Shown here: in pieces, positions 29,218 to 34,539 of the stretch
How the letters are laid out: every line of letters starts with the position of its first letter
Numbering within the stretch: the first letter of the stretch is position 1
Source: a virus
Taxonomy: Duplodnaviria > Caudoviricetes
Reading direction: 5' to 3' (one strand)
DNA length: 35,687 nucleotides
Virus record (IMG/VR): IMGVR_UViG_3300007778_000019
Coordinates: 1 to 35,687 of that record
Notes under the pieces: generated by a model
What the model was told of the DNA's origin: nothing
Database searches by the model: none
What the model saw: the letters and a program-made list of their open reading frames with translations, nothing else
Position numbers and translations under genes: made by a program

Positions 29218-29805
29218 TTAGCTAAACATCTCGTAAATCTCTTTAGCAGTAGCATCACCGGAAAGCTTTGTACTGCAGGACATGTTAGGATAGAGCACTT
29301 CTAGCTCTGCTTCAAGGCCAACTTCGCTGTGGATAAGTTCACTGCACGGTATCGTACACATTGCATTTATTAGACGATTATTTATCCAAGCCAATAAATT
29401 AGGATCAGCTTTTACTAAGTAATACTGACTGTCATGGATCTGTGCTATAGGCAATATTTGATGGCTTAAGTTAGCTTCAGCAACTTCTTCCATAAACTTA
29501 ATAGCACTGTAATTATTCAGCAACCCATAAGACTGACCTAGCGCATTACCTGCTGTTCTGCCTTCAGCAGCTGCTTCAAACGGCATATGAGAGCGATTAA
29601 GCAATGTTTTATGTAATACTGGTGTCCTTACCCTAAGTCCAAAAGCAACTTCAATATAACCGTCCTTAGAGGCTTTCAGAAGCTTATCTTGAACCCATTC
29701 ATCACTGGCTTTGTAAAGTTCATGATAATTGTCTTCAATTTGTTTAGCTTCTTTTGGATCAAAGCCTAGGTTATTGACTAATGTATGCCAGGTTCCTTGG
29801 TACGT
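29218..29805 (-). CDS. DNA polymerase A, piece 3b: second half of motif B to the C-terminus
   Basis: TYQGTWHTL...FGLRVRTP...AEGRTAGNALGQSYGLLN...QIHDSQY (motif C). Similarity begins only at TYQG; the first 14 aa of the listed ORF from 29847 are out of the polymerase frame. Confidence 0.88.
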   Translation of the reverse strand, partial: TYQGTWHTLVNNLGFDPKEAKQIEDNYHELYKASDEWVQDKLLKASKDGYIEVAFGLRVRTPVLHKTLLNRSHMPFEAAAEGRTAGNALGQSYGLLNNYSAIKFMEEVAEANLSHQILPIAQIHDSQYYLVKADPNLLAWINNRLINAMCTIPCSELIHSEVGLEAELEVLYPNMSCSTKLSGDATAKEIYEMFS

Positions 29806-29948
29806 TACGTAAGAGCAAAGGTTGGACCCTTGCTCTTCTGCCTCCATTGACTGTATTTAGTCTCAATACTATTAATTTGAATACGGTTAAATTCACTATT
29901 ACTGATTTCGTGAATAGAATCAGGTTTATTTGATATGTGGATTTCCAT
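29805..29948 (-). CDS. DNA polymerase A, piece 3a (47 aa; not in the ORF track): first half of motif B
   Basis: Read by hand: MEIHISNKPDSIHEISNSEFNRIQINSIETKYSQWRQKSKGPTFALT*. INSI..KY...RQ.SK.PTFALT is N4-type motif B. Confidence 0.85.
   Translation of the reverse strand: MEIHISNKPDSIHEISNSEFNRIQINSIETKYSQWRQKSKGPTFALT
29811..29837 (-). promoter_or_regulatory. 12-bp mRNA hairpin immediately 5' of the ACG-TAA interruption (candidate recoding signal)
   Basis: mRNA AAGAGCAAGGGU-CCA-ACCUUUGCUCUU has 11 Watson-Crick pairs plus one G-U pair that forms only on the coding strand. Confidence 0.6.
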
Positions 29949-30516
29949 TAACTCTTGCTCTTTCTTGTTTCTGTCTTAACAACTCGGCATCTAGTAAATG
30001 TTCAATGCCTTGTTCTTTAGCAATTTTACGTATTTTTGTAGAAAGATACGGCACTCTATACGGTAGACGTAAAGATAGACTGTAATAGCTTTCACCTTCC
30101 AATACATCATGTAAACATTGGATAAACTCTTCTTTTGTAAGTCTACTAGTATATGTTTTAAGTCCTGTTCTAACTGCATGAATTGCATTTCCTTGACGTG
30201 TACACCACTCTAAATTACTAACCTGGTTATTTAACCTATCACCGTCTATATGGTTTACTTCAGGCAAGTTAAGTGGGTTAGGTATCCATGCTATAGCAAC
30301 AAGTCGGTGTACATACTTAGTGTATTGCTTACTATCTTTCCACAAACTTACTTGTGGGTATTTTAACCGTTTATTAGGTCTTGCACTTAATATTCTAGAT
30401 GGGCGTGGATAATAAACACCATCCCTACCTAAAACATATCTAGCTATAGATTTCACTACACCTGTGTCGCTTACAGCATATGAATCTTCAAAGCCTGTTA
30501 TTGGTAAAAAGTTCAT
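29926..30516 (-). mobile_element. NUMOD4-HNH homing endonuclease inserted in the DNA polymerase gene
   Basis: FLPITGFEDSYAVSDTGVVKS (NUMOD4) and VHRLVA.AWIPNP.NLPEVNHIDGDRLNNQVSNLEWCT..GN..HA (HNH). GGAG SD before ATG at 30516; overlaps both flanking polymerase pieces. Confidence 0.93.
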
Positions 30517-31069
30517 AAAATTCTTCTCCAGTGTATGCACTATTTTTGTATTTTATAGTATCACCAGATGTAAAACAAATGTCGGTGCCATTTACATTTG
30601 CACAGTATGTTTTTAATGCACTATTTTCAGGTATTTGACGTATGTCTGGCATTTGGTCTTTAAAGTACGCATAAGCTCTGAGACAGTGGCCATCGTATCC
30701 ATCCTCATAGACTTTCAATTTATTTGGATCTTTTGTTGTCAATGCAGCAATACGGTCTTCCAGACTAGAAAAGTCAGCGCCAATTAATACCCAGCCTTCA
30801 GGAGCTACAAAACACTTTTTAAACTTCTTAGCGTAAATAGTACCAGTAGACGGTAGATTCTGTAAGTTAGGATTACTACTGCTCATACGACCAGAAACAG
30901 TACCACCTAAATTAAAGTTACCATGTAAATAATGCCTACCGTCTGCTTTAGGTATGCTTTTATTTTTAAACGCTTTGATAAATGTATTTTGTAACTTGTT
31001 AATTTCAGCTAGGACATTAATGCTCTTTAACAACCGTAAAGCTTCAAGAGCTTCTTGTTTGGTTTTCAT
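30488..31069 (-). CDS. DNA polymerase A, piece 2 (end of thumb, palm motif A)
   Basis: GGTVSGRMSSSNPNLQNLP, IGADFSSLEDRI (motif A) and DGYDGHCLRAYAYFKDQMPDI, then a ~50-aa extension. Confidence 0.92.
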   Translation of the reverse strand: MKTKQEALEALRLLKSINVLAEINKLQNTFIKAFKNKSIPKADGRHYLHGNFNLGGTVSGRMSSSNPNLQNLPSTGTIYAKKFKKCFVAPEGWVLIGADFSSLEDRIAALTTKDPNKLKVYEDGYDGHCLRAYAYFKDQMPDIRQIPENSALKTYCANVNGTDICFTSGDTIKYKNSAYTGEEFYELFTNNRL

Positions 31070-32538
31070 AAGGCATCATACTCTTCGTCAGAAATATTGA
31101 ACTTAGTCTTAAGTTGACTAATAAGTTTTTTAACAGTTTTATTCCCAGTAGCAGGTAACCCAGTATCAGTAGTATCAATAACATCAAAGCCAATATGGTC
31201 ATATAACAACTTGGTTAGATGTACTGTACTTCCTGGGTTAAACAATACTTTGCAATCATCTAAAGACACCACTTTACGTTTTAGTGCTTTATTTCTGTTA
31301 ACAAATTCTTCTTTAGTAAGTGCCCATTCAAAGTCTTTAACTAACTGACTATGTTGGATCACTTGGTTATGTTGCTCACGTAAATCATTAAGTTCTTGAT
31401 CCAAGGTATCTACAACAGACATGTCCATTGGCATACCTACTAATTCCATTTGTGTAATGTTCTTTAACGCTGGAATAAATAGGTTCTTGTAAATGTCGAG
31501 TTGGTTATCTTGAACCAAAGTAGGGTAATGTTTACTGTAGGCATAGTGCGTAGATAAGGCGTCTACTAAATTATATTCTAACAGTTCTTTTTCAGGTATT
31601 TGTGTAATGTCATGAATCTGCTCTTGAGCATAATCACCTGCAAATTCAAAAGCTATAGCTTTCAAACTTAAATTATTACCTGTAGTAGAATTAGTAGCCA
31701 AATAAGCAATTAACTTAGTATCGTGCACTTTACGGTACATAACATCTAATCCTTGGATCATGCCTTCATAATCCAATGGGTGTTGCATAAATAAGTGATA
31801 CACAATGCAACGTATGTCGAATGTAGCGTTATGCCACATAGTCGTACCAGAATATGTACAAAAAAACTTTTTAATTGCAGGTATATTTTCGTCAGTAATT
31901 CTAAAAGCAATACCTTCATGTTGGTTCCAGGCAAAGCTAATCGTAGCAGGTACAGCTTTAGCCAGATCCAAACCATAAGTTTCAATGTCACAAGACAGCA
32001 TGGAATGCTGATGTAGTTTAGATAGTGTTGTTTCAACCTGAGAGAGCGTTTCAGGGTAATAAGCACTGTGTATGATGTTATGCCCTAGCTCTGTATAAGT
32101 CCCCTGTAACCAGCTGTTAAGGGTTTTTAAACTCAAGTCTAATTTGTCTTGTAATGCTGGGTTATGGAACAGTGCTTGATAATTAACACCGTAAATAATG
32201 TTTATGTGTTCAAAGTTTTTGATAGCACAAGGAATCACATAACCATAACAAGGTTCAGTCTTTGCTTTCTTGGTTAAAAACTTAAAATAAGCTGAATCTG
32301 CAACATATAACGTCTTAATATTATTTTCATTTAAGATGGGTAATATATGCTGCAGGTACTCTTTAGCAATAGCGGCTGTAATTTTATTATTATCTGGATA
32401 CTCCAGTGATAAAGCTACTACAGAGCTATTAATAAACCTAACATAATAGGAGTACAACAAGTCATAGCTACAGGCTTTGTCTTTAATAAGCAAAGCTACG
32501 CTAGGAAATTCATCCGGTGTAAAATGGTACTCTTTCAT
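31066..32538 (-). CDS. DNA polymerase A, piece 1 (N-terminal domain, 3'-5' exonuclease, start of thumb)
   Basis: ExoI CDIETYG, ExoII HNATFD, ExoIII YNLVD; thumb FNPGS...LLYD and TGLPATG. Confidence 0.92.
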   Translation of the reverse strand: MKEYHFTPDEFPSVALLIKDKACSYDLLYSYYVRFINSSVVALSLEYPDNNKITAAIAKEYLQHILPILNENNIKTLYVADSAYFKFLTKKAKTEPCYGYVIPCAIKNFEHINIIYGVNYQALFHNPALQDKLDLSLKTLNSWLQGTYTELGHNIIHSAYYPETLSQVETTLSKLHQHSMLSCDIETYGLDLAKAVPATISFAWNQHEGIAFRITDENIPAIKKFFCTYSGTTMWHNATFDIRCIVYHLFMQHPLDYEGMIQGLDVMYRKVHDTKLIAYLATNSTTGNNLSLKAIAFEFAGDYAQEQIHDITQIPEKELLEYNLVDALSTHYAYSKHYPTLVQDNQLDIYKNLFIPALKNITQMELVGMPMDMSVVDTLDQELNDLREQHNQVIQHSQLVKDFEWALTKEEFVNRNKALKRKVVSLDDCKVLFNPGSTVHLTKLLYDHIGFDVIDTTDTGLPATGNKTVKKLISQLKTKFNISDEEYDAL

Positions 32539-32778: not shown

Positions 32779-32805
32779 AAAAAAAAGCCCTACACGAGGT
32801 AGGGC
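32779..32805 (-). terminator. Rho-independent terminator
   Basis: Minus strand GCCCTA-CCTCGTG-TAGGGC followed by T8, in an intergenic gap. Confidence 0.85.
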
Positions 32806-32865
32806 AAGGTATAACTGTAGGGGAGTAAACTAATGCGTCTTTGCAAAGTTCACTTCAACTATAGT

Positions 32866-33898: not shown

Positions 33899-34186
33899 TT
33901 AAATTACCCAAGGCATAGCGAGTATTTGTTTGCGTGAGTAAGTTCTATAGTTAAGTGGACTATCTAGTGGATGGTAGCGGTTTACACCTGATCTAAAACA
34001 TCCACAGGATTTAACTTTTTTAATACTACTGGCTCTAGTAGTAAAATGTTTATTGCACACTTTACACTCTAAAACCCACATATGATCTCGTTGTTTTTTA
34101 ACGTAATGACTGTACTCAATAACCTTGATGTACTTGGTTTCAAAGTTAGTGAATATAGTTTTATTTTTTCCAATAGGTGTAGGCAT
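33899..34186 (-). CDS. Basic Cys-rich protein resembling the N-terminal Zn module of phage homing endonucleases
   Basis: IKVIEY...MWVLECKVCNKHFTTRASSIKKVKSCGC; no nuclease motif follows. Confidence 0.6.
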   Translation of the reverse strand: MPTPIGKNKTIFTNFETKYIKVIEYSHYVKKQRDHMWVLECKVCNKHFTTRASSIKKVKSCGCFRSGVNRYHPLDSPLNYRTYSRKQILAMPWVI

Positions 34187-34188
34187 AG

Positions 34189-34539
34189 CTATACCCAATT
34201 CTCCGCATGTAAAGGCGATTCAATCTGCCTAACAATGTATAAATGGTAGTCCATTGGATCACCTGACATTTCATTGTCATCGTTTTCTTCACCAATTCGT
34301 ATAAACCCATAAAGATCTCTTTCGCTTGGAATTTCTTCAATAGCTGCTAGTAAAGACTCCATGTAAGATACATCTGGATAATCCAAATACCACCTGGTTC
34401 CATTAACAGCCCAATGATAAGCACCATCAATAACTGTTTTGCTGTCATGCCAAAACGCATTGATACCTACACCAATGAGCACTTGTGCATCATAAGTATC
34501 TTTGTCTATAGCTATAGCTACATCACTTCGATAACCCAT
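34189..34539 (-). CDS. Phage hypothetical protein (MGYRSDV-type)
   Basis: MGYRSDVAI...RWYLDYPDV...FIRIGEENDD, a pattern recurrent in phage hypothetical proteins; AAGGT SD. Confidence 0.75.
   Translation of the reverse strand: MGYRSDVAIAIDKDTYDAQVLIGVGINAFWHDSKTVIDGAYHWAVNGTRWYLDYPDVSYMESLLAAIEEIPSERDLYGFIRIGEENDDNEMSGDPMDYHLYIVRQIESPLHAENWV

What the first reader, a model, noticed from the sequence alone, without database searches (positions are those of the whole stretch)
29801..30640. HNH endonuclease plus protective insertion: a mobA/gene 60-like mobile cassette in a PolA gene
Seen: an intact NUMOD4-HNH ORF splits the polymerase between ...QMPDI and INSI..., and the 5-nt insert lies about 120 nt past its stop, in the most conserved nearby sequence (motif B). 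Established: T4 mobA splits the topoisomerase large-subunit gene into genes 39 and 60, and the bypassed 50-nt insert protects against MobA and is co-inherited with it; homing endonucleases favour conserved active-site codons. Inference: this HNH cuts insert-free motif-B alleles, the insert gives self-immunity, and recoding rescues translation. That would be a convergent case in an unrelated gene and phage family.
Basis: partly seen in the sequence, partly recalled or inferred. Interest (0 to 1): 0.85.

Follow-up and report, generated by a model that had tools for sequence, protein, structure and literature searches.

The report
Five-base ribosome hop in phage polymerase
This N4-like phage's DNA polymerase gene carries a stop codon plus two extra bases inside a catalytic motif, and dozens of wild relatives keep the same break behind a ribosome-binding-like signal and an RNA hairpin, so ribosomes likely hop five bases over it, in a nuclease cassette that would shield the gene from its own nuclease, a miniature and untested relative of the phage T4 gene 60 bypass.

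Summary
Real, not an assembly slip. An intact NUMOD4-HNH gene splits the polymerase, and 119 nt past its stop motif B reads Thr-stop-2 nt-Tyr. Relatives show a conserved design: 38 distinct +5 loci all have a Thr codon, then a stop (TAA, TAG or TGA), then a Thr or wobble-compatible triplet. All 38 have an upstream Shine-Dalgarno-like site (5 of 66 intact loci) and a hairpin ending at the take-off codon; looped out, it puts the landing triplet a median 8 nt from the SD. Downstream frames are intact with dN/dS 0.04-0.22. All 13 loci found through this HNH clade alone have a motif-B insert (+1, +5 or 40-48 nt); phage nACB1 has the same nuclease inside a group I intron there. The cassette's C-terminal tail resembles that of T4 gp39, so the case is not purely convergent. 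Best reading: programmed +5 ribosome hop (about 0.75) in a mobA-like cassette; nicking and immunity are inferred (about 0.65). Nothing was tested at the bench; no paper found. This scan noted the same element once before on another genome.

The parts
31066..32538 (-). Polymerase piece 1 (3'-5' exonuclease and start of the thumb), 490 aa; ends at a second, separate split
30641..31069 (-). Polymerase piece 2 up to QMPDI (contains motif A)
30488..30640 (-). C-terminal extension (CTE, 50 aa) added by the cassette; similar to the T4 gp39 tail, weakly Hint-like; likely half of a clasp
29926..30516 (-). Free-standing NUMOD4-HNH endonuclease, 196 aa, I-HmuI-like, overlapping both tails; GGAG upstream of the ATG
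29808..29948 (-). N-terminal extension (NTE) plus the cassette's own copy of the start of motif B, 47 codons ending at the take-off Thr
29841..29845 (-). Shine-Dalgarno-like GGAGG, 3 nt before the hairpin
29811..29837 (-). 27-nt mRNA hairpin ending at the base before the take-off codon
29808..29810 (-). Predicted take-off codon ACG (Thr)
29803..29807 (-). 5-nt coding gap: stop TAA overlapping the predicted landing codon ACG (29805-29803)
29218..29802 (-). Polymerase C-terminal frame from the motif-B Tyr through motif C, 194 aa, no conserved start codon

Best explanation
The polymerase gene is split by a mobile tail-HNH-tail cassette and carries a five-base, stop-containing gap in motif B, which ribosomes likely cross by a programmed +5 hop from one threonine codon to the next. 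Shown: the anatomy, its conservation, and its co-transfer as a block. Inferred: the ribosome pauses with peptidyl-tRNA-Thr on ACG and the stop in the A site; 16S rRNA pairs with GGAGG while the 27-nt hairpin refolds behind the ribosome; with the hairpin looped out the SD lies 8 nt from the second ACG, where the tRNA re-pairs, and decoding resumes at the motif-B Tyr, giving the normal ...FALTYQGT sequence. Inferred, less firmly (about 0.65): the HNH nicks gap-free motif-B alleles, the gap protects the carrier, and repair copies the cassette into other phages. Inferred: the two tails fold together and hold the split polymerase halves.
For: Gap length is not random: 16 of 18 polymerase loci from scans allowing 1-30 extra bases have exactly 5. 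All 38 distinct +5 loci have Thr then a stop, with all three stops used (TAA 14, TAG 15, TGA 9), at two sites 12 nt apart (14 and 24 loci). Landing triplets are ACN or differ only by A-to-G at base 1 or C-to-T at base 2, both wobble-pairable; pyrimidine-ending take-off goes with pyrimidine-ending landing in 23 of 23, purine with purine in 11 of 15. SD-like duplex of -6 kcal/mol or better in 38 of 38 against 5 of 66 intact loci, shifting with the take-off site, no difference in 6 downstream control windows. Hairpin ends within -3..+2 of take-off in 38 of 38; z below -2 against synonymous shuffles in 14 of 14 and 20 of 24, against 10 of 66 and 2 of 66; two-sided changes in 6 of 12 and 2 of 10 pairs. 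SD-to-landing distance with the hairpin looped out: median 8, range 6-14, also 8 in three loci with a 44-nt hairpin. 40 of 40 complete downstream frames keep motif C; dN/dS 0.04-0.22 in 10 unsaturated pairs. 13 of 13 HNH-clade loci have an insert, six of them 40-48 nt with a C/G hairpin between Thr codons. nACB1 carries a 50%-identical HNH in a group I intron inside the Leu codon of the same motif, nested in the same HNH clade. Cassette moves as a block: L278/L284 93-100% identical over -840..-1, 67-88% upstream; L200 and L287 match intact L206 almost perfectly from the landing codon on; window and L286 are identical upstream and diverge 8 nt after the gap.
Against: No protein, ribosome or RNA data exist here. 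The 38 loci are not independent (near relatives, horizontal transfer), so the P values overstate; matched third bases could partly reflect origin by duplication. An SD 30-45 nt before take-off acting through a looped-out hairpin has no tested precedent in the papers I read; in gene 60 the mini-SD is inside the gap. Five +5 loci are unsplit with no HNH at the site and two are split without one, so the gap does not need the nuclease to persist. HNH clade and gap site are not strictly matched (L301, L304, L200). From memory, I-HmuI-type nickases can cut both intron-plus and intron-minus alleles, which would undercut self-immunity. The identical-then-divergent pairs could include assembly chimeras. 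No cultured phage with the +5 gap was found among 13 records inspected of 470 with a match.
Confidence: 0.75

Rival explanations
1. Another translational route: stop readthrough followed by a -1 or +2 slip, or a -1 slip before the stop, giving a polymerase with one or two extra residues in motif B.
For: A +1 class exists at the same motif (L267, L319; 8 of 120 protein fragments begin with +1-frame peptides), so slippage is tolerated here; U-runs follow the gap at site 1.
Against: Site 2 has no common slippery run; all three stops occur; extra residues would fall in the O helix next to its Phe and Tyr (alignment to Klenow fragment); matched landing triplets would be unexplained.
Confidence: 0.09
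2. Two separate polypeptides: translation ends at the stop and the SD, bridged by the hairpin, starts a new protein at a non-AUG codon at the landing position.
For: The SD-hairpin geometry gives initiation-like spacing; some landing or adjacent triplets are near-cognate starts (ACG, GTG, ATT, TTG); the enzyme is already in pieces.
Against: Many landing triplets (GCT, ACT, GCG, ACC) cannot pair with initiator tRNA but can with tRNA-Thr; the window's upstream ATG at 29847 is not conserved, and that frame has stops in relatives; the cut would sever motif B between its Lys/Phe and Tyr.
Confidence: 0.07
3. RNA-level repair: the five bases are excised from the mRNA by a trans-acting ribozyme or enzyme, or skipped in transcription.
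For: A group I intron sits two to four bases from the gap in nACB1; the gap can be drawn at the same junction ending in G.
Against: No group I core in the window (only part of the genome is held); excision would not select for an in-frame stop, an SD or Thr-pairable triplets; gap sequence, length and site vary.
Confidence: 0.05
4. The gap kills the polymerase; these phages use a host or helper polymerase and the cassette spreads as a pure parasite.
For: No cultured isolate with the gap was found; only part of the genome is held, so a second polymerase cannot be excluded.
Against: 40 of 40 complete downstream frames are open with motif C, dN/dS like intact relatives; SD and hairpin were built by synonymous and residue changes.
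Confidence: 0.03
5. Sequencing or assembly error.
For: In the window the gap is a perfect tandem duplication.
Against: Present in contigs of 3 of 3 runs and, in 19 different take-off/stop/landing forms, in 38 distinct loci.
Confidence: 0.01

Closest known systems
Phage T4 gene 39 / mobA / gene 60 element and its homologues (Manning and Atkins, bioRxiv 10.1101/2022.08.31.505936; abstract and sections 3, 4, 12 read)
   Same: Free-standing HNH splitting an essential gene; CTE and NTE overlapping the nuclease ORF; cassette-encoded copy of host sequence before the gap; stop after take-off; matched or wobble-matched codons; element ending at or just after the landing codon; nuclease lost or replaced in some relatives. 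The CTE profile aligns with the T4 gp39 tail (hhalign probability 61%, E 8e-5; above 150 of 150 shuffles and 137 of 137 natural decoys).
   Different: Family A polymerase of N4-like phages, not topoisomerase II of myoviruses; gap 5 nt (shortest reported there 20 nt); Thr rather than Gly/Asp; SD and hairpin lie 5' of take-off instead of in the gap; no NTE similarity and no similarity of the HNH profile to T4's broken mobA region; function not tested.
Synthetic 'stop hops' and +5 hops in E. coli (Weiss et al. 1987, known only through passages and the reference list of PMC5009743)
   Same: Matched codons flanking a stop; +5 hop.
   Different: Artificial constructs without dedicated stimulators; the 2016 review says no natural in-frame stop hops were known. 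Here the hop would have to supply an essential enzyme.
Group I intron with HNH in motif B of Acinetobacter phage nACB1 (OQ032511.1, L002)
   Same: Same nuclease clade (50% identity), same motif, insertion 2-4 nt from the gap.
   Different: Intron-encoded nuclease and splicing instead of a free-standing nuclease and recoding; no split at QMPDI.
HNH-split polymerase genes of cultured N4-like phages (Pylas, SP5M, PD205; JA1 in PMC3670811, passages read)
   Same: HNH inside the polymerase gene between motifs A and B.
   Different: Another site (after KVY), another HNH clade, and an intact motif B.
Fractured genes with split inteins around a free-standing nuclease (Dassa et al. 2009, PMC2677866; abstract read)
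   Same: Enzyme half + tail, nuclease, tail + enzyme half; 6 of 10 weak fold matches of the CTE are Hint domains (Z 2.0-2.6).
   Different: Tails are far too short and lack conserved splicing residues; no coding gap described in the abstract.

Membership tests
Programmed translational bypass (gene 60 type) | Matched or wobble-matched take-off and landing codons | tested here: met
   ACG/ACG in the window; Thr or wobble-pairable triplet in 38 of 38
Programmed translational bypass (gene 60 type) | Stop or slow codon right after take-off | tested here: met
   38 of 38, all three stops
Programmed translational bypass (gene 60 type) | Stem-loop holding the take-off codon with its tip in the gap, and mini-SD inside the gap 5-7 nt before landing | tested here: not met
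   In the 5-nt class hairpin and SD lie 5' of take-off; the 40-48-nt relatives do have a hairpin and purine-rich tract in the gap
Programmed translational bypass (gene 60 type) | One polypeptide from two frames | not testable with these tools
   Indirect only: open, selected downstream frames
Programmed translational bypass (gene 60 type) | Nascent-peptide stimulator | not tested
   Five unsplit loci lack the NTE, so it cannot be universal
MobA element | Insertion in the topoisomerase II large-subunit gene | tested here: not met
   Host gene is PolA
MobA element | CTE-HNH-NTE layout with overlapping ORFs, ending at the landing codon | tested here: met
MobA element | CTE homologous to that of gp39 | tested here: met
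   Modest but control-beating profile match and rank 2 and 5 fold matches to the same residues
MobA element | NTE and nuclease homologous to gp60 NTE and MobA | tested here: inconclusive
   No match, but only T4's single NTE and broken mobA were compared
MobA element | Nuclease nicks gap-free allele and spares gap-containing allele | not testable with these tools
   Indirect: 13 of 13 co-occurrence, intron-borne homologue at the same motif, block transfer
Group I intron | P3-P7 catalytic core around the nuclease ORF or the gap | tested here: not met
   No Intron_gpI match in the window; the same search finds it in nACB1
Split intein (fractured gene) | Full Hint halves with conserved splice-junction residues | tested here: not met
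   50-aa and about 20-aa tails, no invariant splice residues, no Pfam Hint match; only a weak fold likeness
NUMOD4-HNH (I-HmuI-like) endonuclease | NUMOD4 plus HNH_3 domains | tested here: met
   Both above Pfam cut-offs; only solved match is 1u3e

The most novel reading that the evidence does not exclude
A distinct, minimal bypass mechanism: an upstream SD and a looped-out hairpin act as a ruler that re-seats a stop-stalled ribosome five bases forward, even on wobble-mismatched codons, efficiently enough to supply an essential polymerase. One nuclease clade has driven a whole series of escapes in a 15-nt window (+1 slip, +5 hop, in-frame 9-nt hop, 40-48-nt hairpin bypass, group I intron), showing how gene-60-like bypasses arise or shrink, on a clasp module shared by descent with T4's mobA cassette.
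Probability: 0.55. Interest if true: 0.9.

Novelty: new variant of a known kind. Interest (0 to 1): 0.8.

Why it matters
Programmed bypassing has been demonstrated in very few genes, and the origin of the T4 gene 60 insert is an open question. This family offers a 45-nt signal with dozens of natural variants and built-in compensatory changes, short enough for a simple reporter test, and natural intermediates from 1 to 48 nt plus an intron at one motif. It also means that N4-like polymerase genes annotated as frameshifted or broken in metagenomes may be functional, and it gives a direct test of the idea that recoding signals are selected as shields against homing nucleases.

Tried and rejected
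Exact-duplication pattern in viral contigs: 0 matches; the family was reached only with degenerate patterns. Group I intron around the HNH: not found. No tRNA gene in the window. No RNA holder listed, so expression was not examined. Cultured phages: searches with the tail, a second HNH and the out-of-frame peptide led to 7 records, all with intact motif B. The +5 pattern in prokaryotic genomes gave 12 loci, none a polymerase of this kind; 15 of 45 metagenome matches and 3 of 21 viral matches were likewise not polymerase and were dropped; 3 of 80 loci were too short to score. Pfam names no family for the CTE; Foldseek gave no match at E 0.001. The careful polymerase tree did not finish; the quick tree was used, 6 short rows left out. 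Literature searches found no paper on a motif-B gap or bypass in N4-like polymerases; the library lacks most subscription papers, and the supplements of the bioRxiv preprint, which list further cases, were not seen.

Full report
Observation. The window is part of an N4-like phage (virion RNA polymerase, portal, capsid). On the minus strand the family A polymerase lies in four frames: 31066-32538 (exonuclease), 30488-31069 (motif A, QMPDI, then a 50-residue tail), a 47-codon frame from ATG 29948 ending KGPTFALT-stop, and YQGT to 29218. An intact NUMOD4-HNH ORF (29926-30516) overlaps both neighbours. Motif B reads ACG TAA CG TAC; the five extra bases (29807-29803) lie 119 nt past the HNH stop. 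The motif aligns with the O helix of Klenow fragment; the gap is just before its Tyr. Contigs of 3 of 3 public runs span the site without an indel; they may be the source of this DNA, so the independent evidence is the relatives.

Survey. Among the 80 best polymerase loci in viral contigs, 77 could be scored: 70 intact, 6 with +5, 1 with +9. No intact locus has an HNH between QMPDI and motif B; 5 of the 7 inserted ones do and 2 have too little flank. Scans allowing 1-30 extra bases gave 21 loci, 18 of them polymerase: 16 with +5, one +9, one +1. A fixed +5 pattern, blind to content, gave 45 metagenome loci, 30 polymerase. A pattern for the HNH clade, blind to motif B, gave 13 loci, all with an insert: six +5, one +1, six of 40-48 nt. 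After merging identical neighbourhoods there are 38 distinct +5 loci and 66 intact ones; many are relatives, so counts are not independent events.

The signal. All 38 have a Thr codon followed by a stop (TAA 14, TAG 15, TGA 9), 14 before the motif-B Phe and 24 before the Tyr. The triplet five bases on is ACN, or differs by G at base 1 or T at base 2, both able to wobble-pair with tRNA-Thr (established pairing rules); pyrimidine-ending take-off codons always go with pyrimidine-ending landing codons (23 of 23). An SD-like site is present in 38 of 38 against 5 of 66 and moves with the take-off site; six downstream windows show no difference. A hairpin ends within -3..+2 of the take-off codon in 38 of 38; it beats synonymous shuffles at z below -2 in 14 of 14 and 20 of 24 loci against 10 of 66 and 2 of 66. 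Two-sided changes occur in 6 of 12 pairs at site 1 (13 of 14 loci aligned) and 2 of 10 at site 2 (21 of 24 aligned; three with a longer stem left out), covariation score above 500 of 500 shuffles in both, though a one-base slide scores nearly as well at site 1 and relatedness inflates this test. With the hairpin looped out the SD lies 6-14 nt (median 8; window 8) from the landing triplet, also in three loci whose hairpin is 44 nt. The long inserts have Thr codons at both ends, a C/G hairpin and a purine-rich tract, close to the gene 60 layout.

The product is under selection. Of 47 distinct inserted loci, 40 have a complete downstream frame, all 194-208 residues with motif C; 7 run off the contig. 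dN/dS is 0.04-0.22 in 10 pairs (3 more saturated) against 0.07-0.15 in 3 intact pairs. The frame has no conserved start.

Mobility and the nuclease. Gap loci are scattered among intact ones on a quick tree of the downstream protein. L200 and L287 match intact L206 almost perfectly from the landing codon on and diverge upstream; L278/L284 and L315/L316 are most alike over the 840 nt of the cassette; the window and L286, 63% identical in the downstream protein, are identical over the 108 nt held upstream and first differ 8 nt after the gap. Some of these could be assembly chimeras. Acinetobacter phage nACB1 has a 50%-identical HNH inside a group I intron in the Leu codon of the same motif, nested in the clade of free-standing cassette nucleases. 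Since intron nucleases generally act near their insertion site (established knowledge), this points to motif B as the target. Against a strict link: of the 38, 27 have a profile-detected HNH at the site, 1 a different HNH type (L290), 2 are split without one, 5 are unsplit, 3 are too short to tell; loss and replacement of the nuclease are also reported for MobA (Manning and Atkins, sections 4 and 12).

The tails. The CTE folds as four strands and a helix (pLDDT 73). Weak fold matches are six Hint domains and residues 471-518 of T4 topoisomerase, its own cassette tail (Z 2.0-2.6; Foldseek rank 2, E 1.6). The CTE profile aligns without gaps to the gp39 tail (probability 61%, E 8e-5), above all 150 shuffles and 137 decoys. 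Xin et al. (PMC11461880, passages read) describe that insertion as a pendant domain formed by both tails. A complex prediction of CTE with NTE gave weak support: score 0.42, best control 0.01, contacts agreeing at least 91%, partner pLDDT at least 67; the mark was reached by 116 of 157 solved and 2 of 215 mismatched pairs, but at 0.60 or under by only 18 solved and both mismatches. So the clasp is plausible, not shown, and probably shares ancestry with T4's.

Mechanism and verdict. Most likely (0.75) a programmed +5 hop: pause at the stop, SD pairing and hairpin refolding behind the ribosome, re-pairing of peptidyl-tRNA-Thr, resumption at Tyr. A forward push by mRNA pairing behind the ribosome is proposed for gene 60 (Wills et al., bioRxiv 10.1101/2024.12.09.627546, abstract and first part of the introduction read), but the SD-plus-hairpin ruler is my inference. 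Nicking of gap-free alleles and self-immunity are inferred (about 0.65). It works like the mobA/gene 60 element and is not a member as defined (other host gene, other RNA layout). Bonocora 2011 and Weiss 1987 were not read; they are cited through the preprint and review PMC5009743 (passages). Six searches found no paper on this element. Earlier AI notes of this scan, seen after my reading was formed, report the same element in another N4-like phage and similar short gaps in other phage polymerases; they are not independent support.

Noticed in passing
window 31066-31069: Second split of the polymerase in the thumb, with overlapping stop and start and no gene between; relatives L179, L168, L170 and L174 are split at the same place with one or two unrelated ORFs inserted.
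   Followed up: partly
L204 (= L251) motif B: In-frame 9-nt insert with Leu codons flanking Arg-stop, behind the same SD and hairpin: a candidate natural in-frame stop hop.
   Followed up: partly
L267, L319; proteins P0126, P0132, P0149, P0167, P0168, P0169, P0171, P0226: One extra base at the Thr-Phe codons of motif B; the two loci with DNA have the HNH cassette, SD and hairpin: a candidate +1 frameshift class.
   Followed up: partly
L088, L320, L321, L323, L326 motif B: 40-48-nt inserts between Thr codons with a C/G hairpin (UUCG loop in L088 and L326): close look-alikes of the gene 60 gap.
   Followed up: partly
L002 3359-4199 (nACB1): 843-nt group I intron with HNH in motif B, annotated in the record as two separate polymerase genes; further intron-like 3' ends in proteins P0159, P0207, P0230.
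   Followed up: partly
38 +5 loci: ACA is never the take-off codon (0 of 38) although it is common at these positions in intact loci (17 of 66 and 6 of 66); ACG is over-used (15 of 38).
   Followed up: no
window 33899-34219: Short ORF with a partial HNH-family match (phrog_374), possibly a nuclease remnant.
   Followed up: no
window 29524: One base differs between the window and all three public contig sets, and from L274.
   Followed up: no
window 32787-32808: Inverted repeat followed by a T run on the minus strand upstream of the polymerase operon, terminator-like by eye.
   Followed up: no
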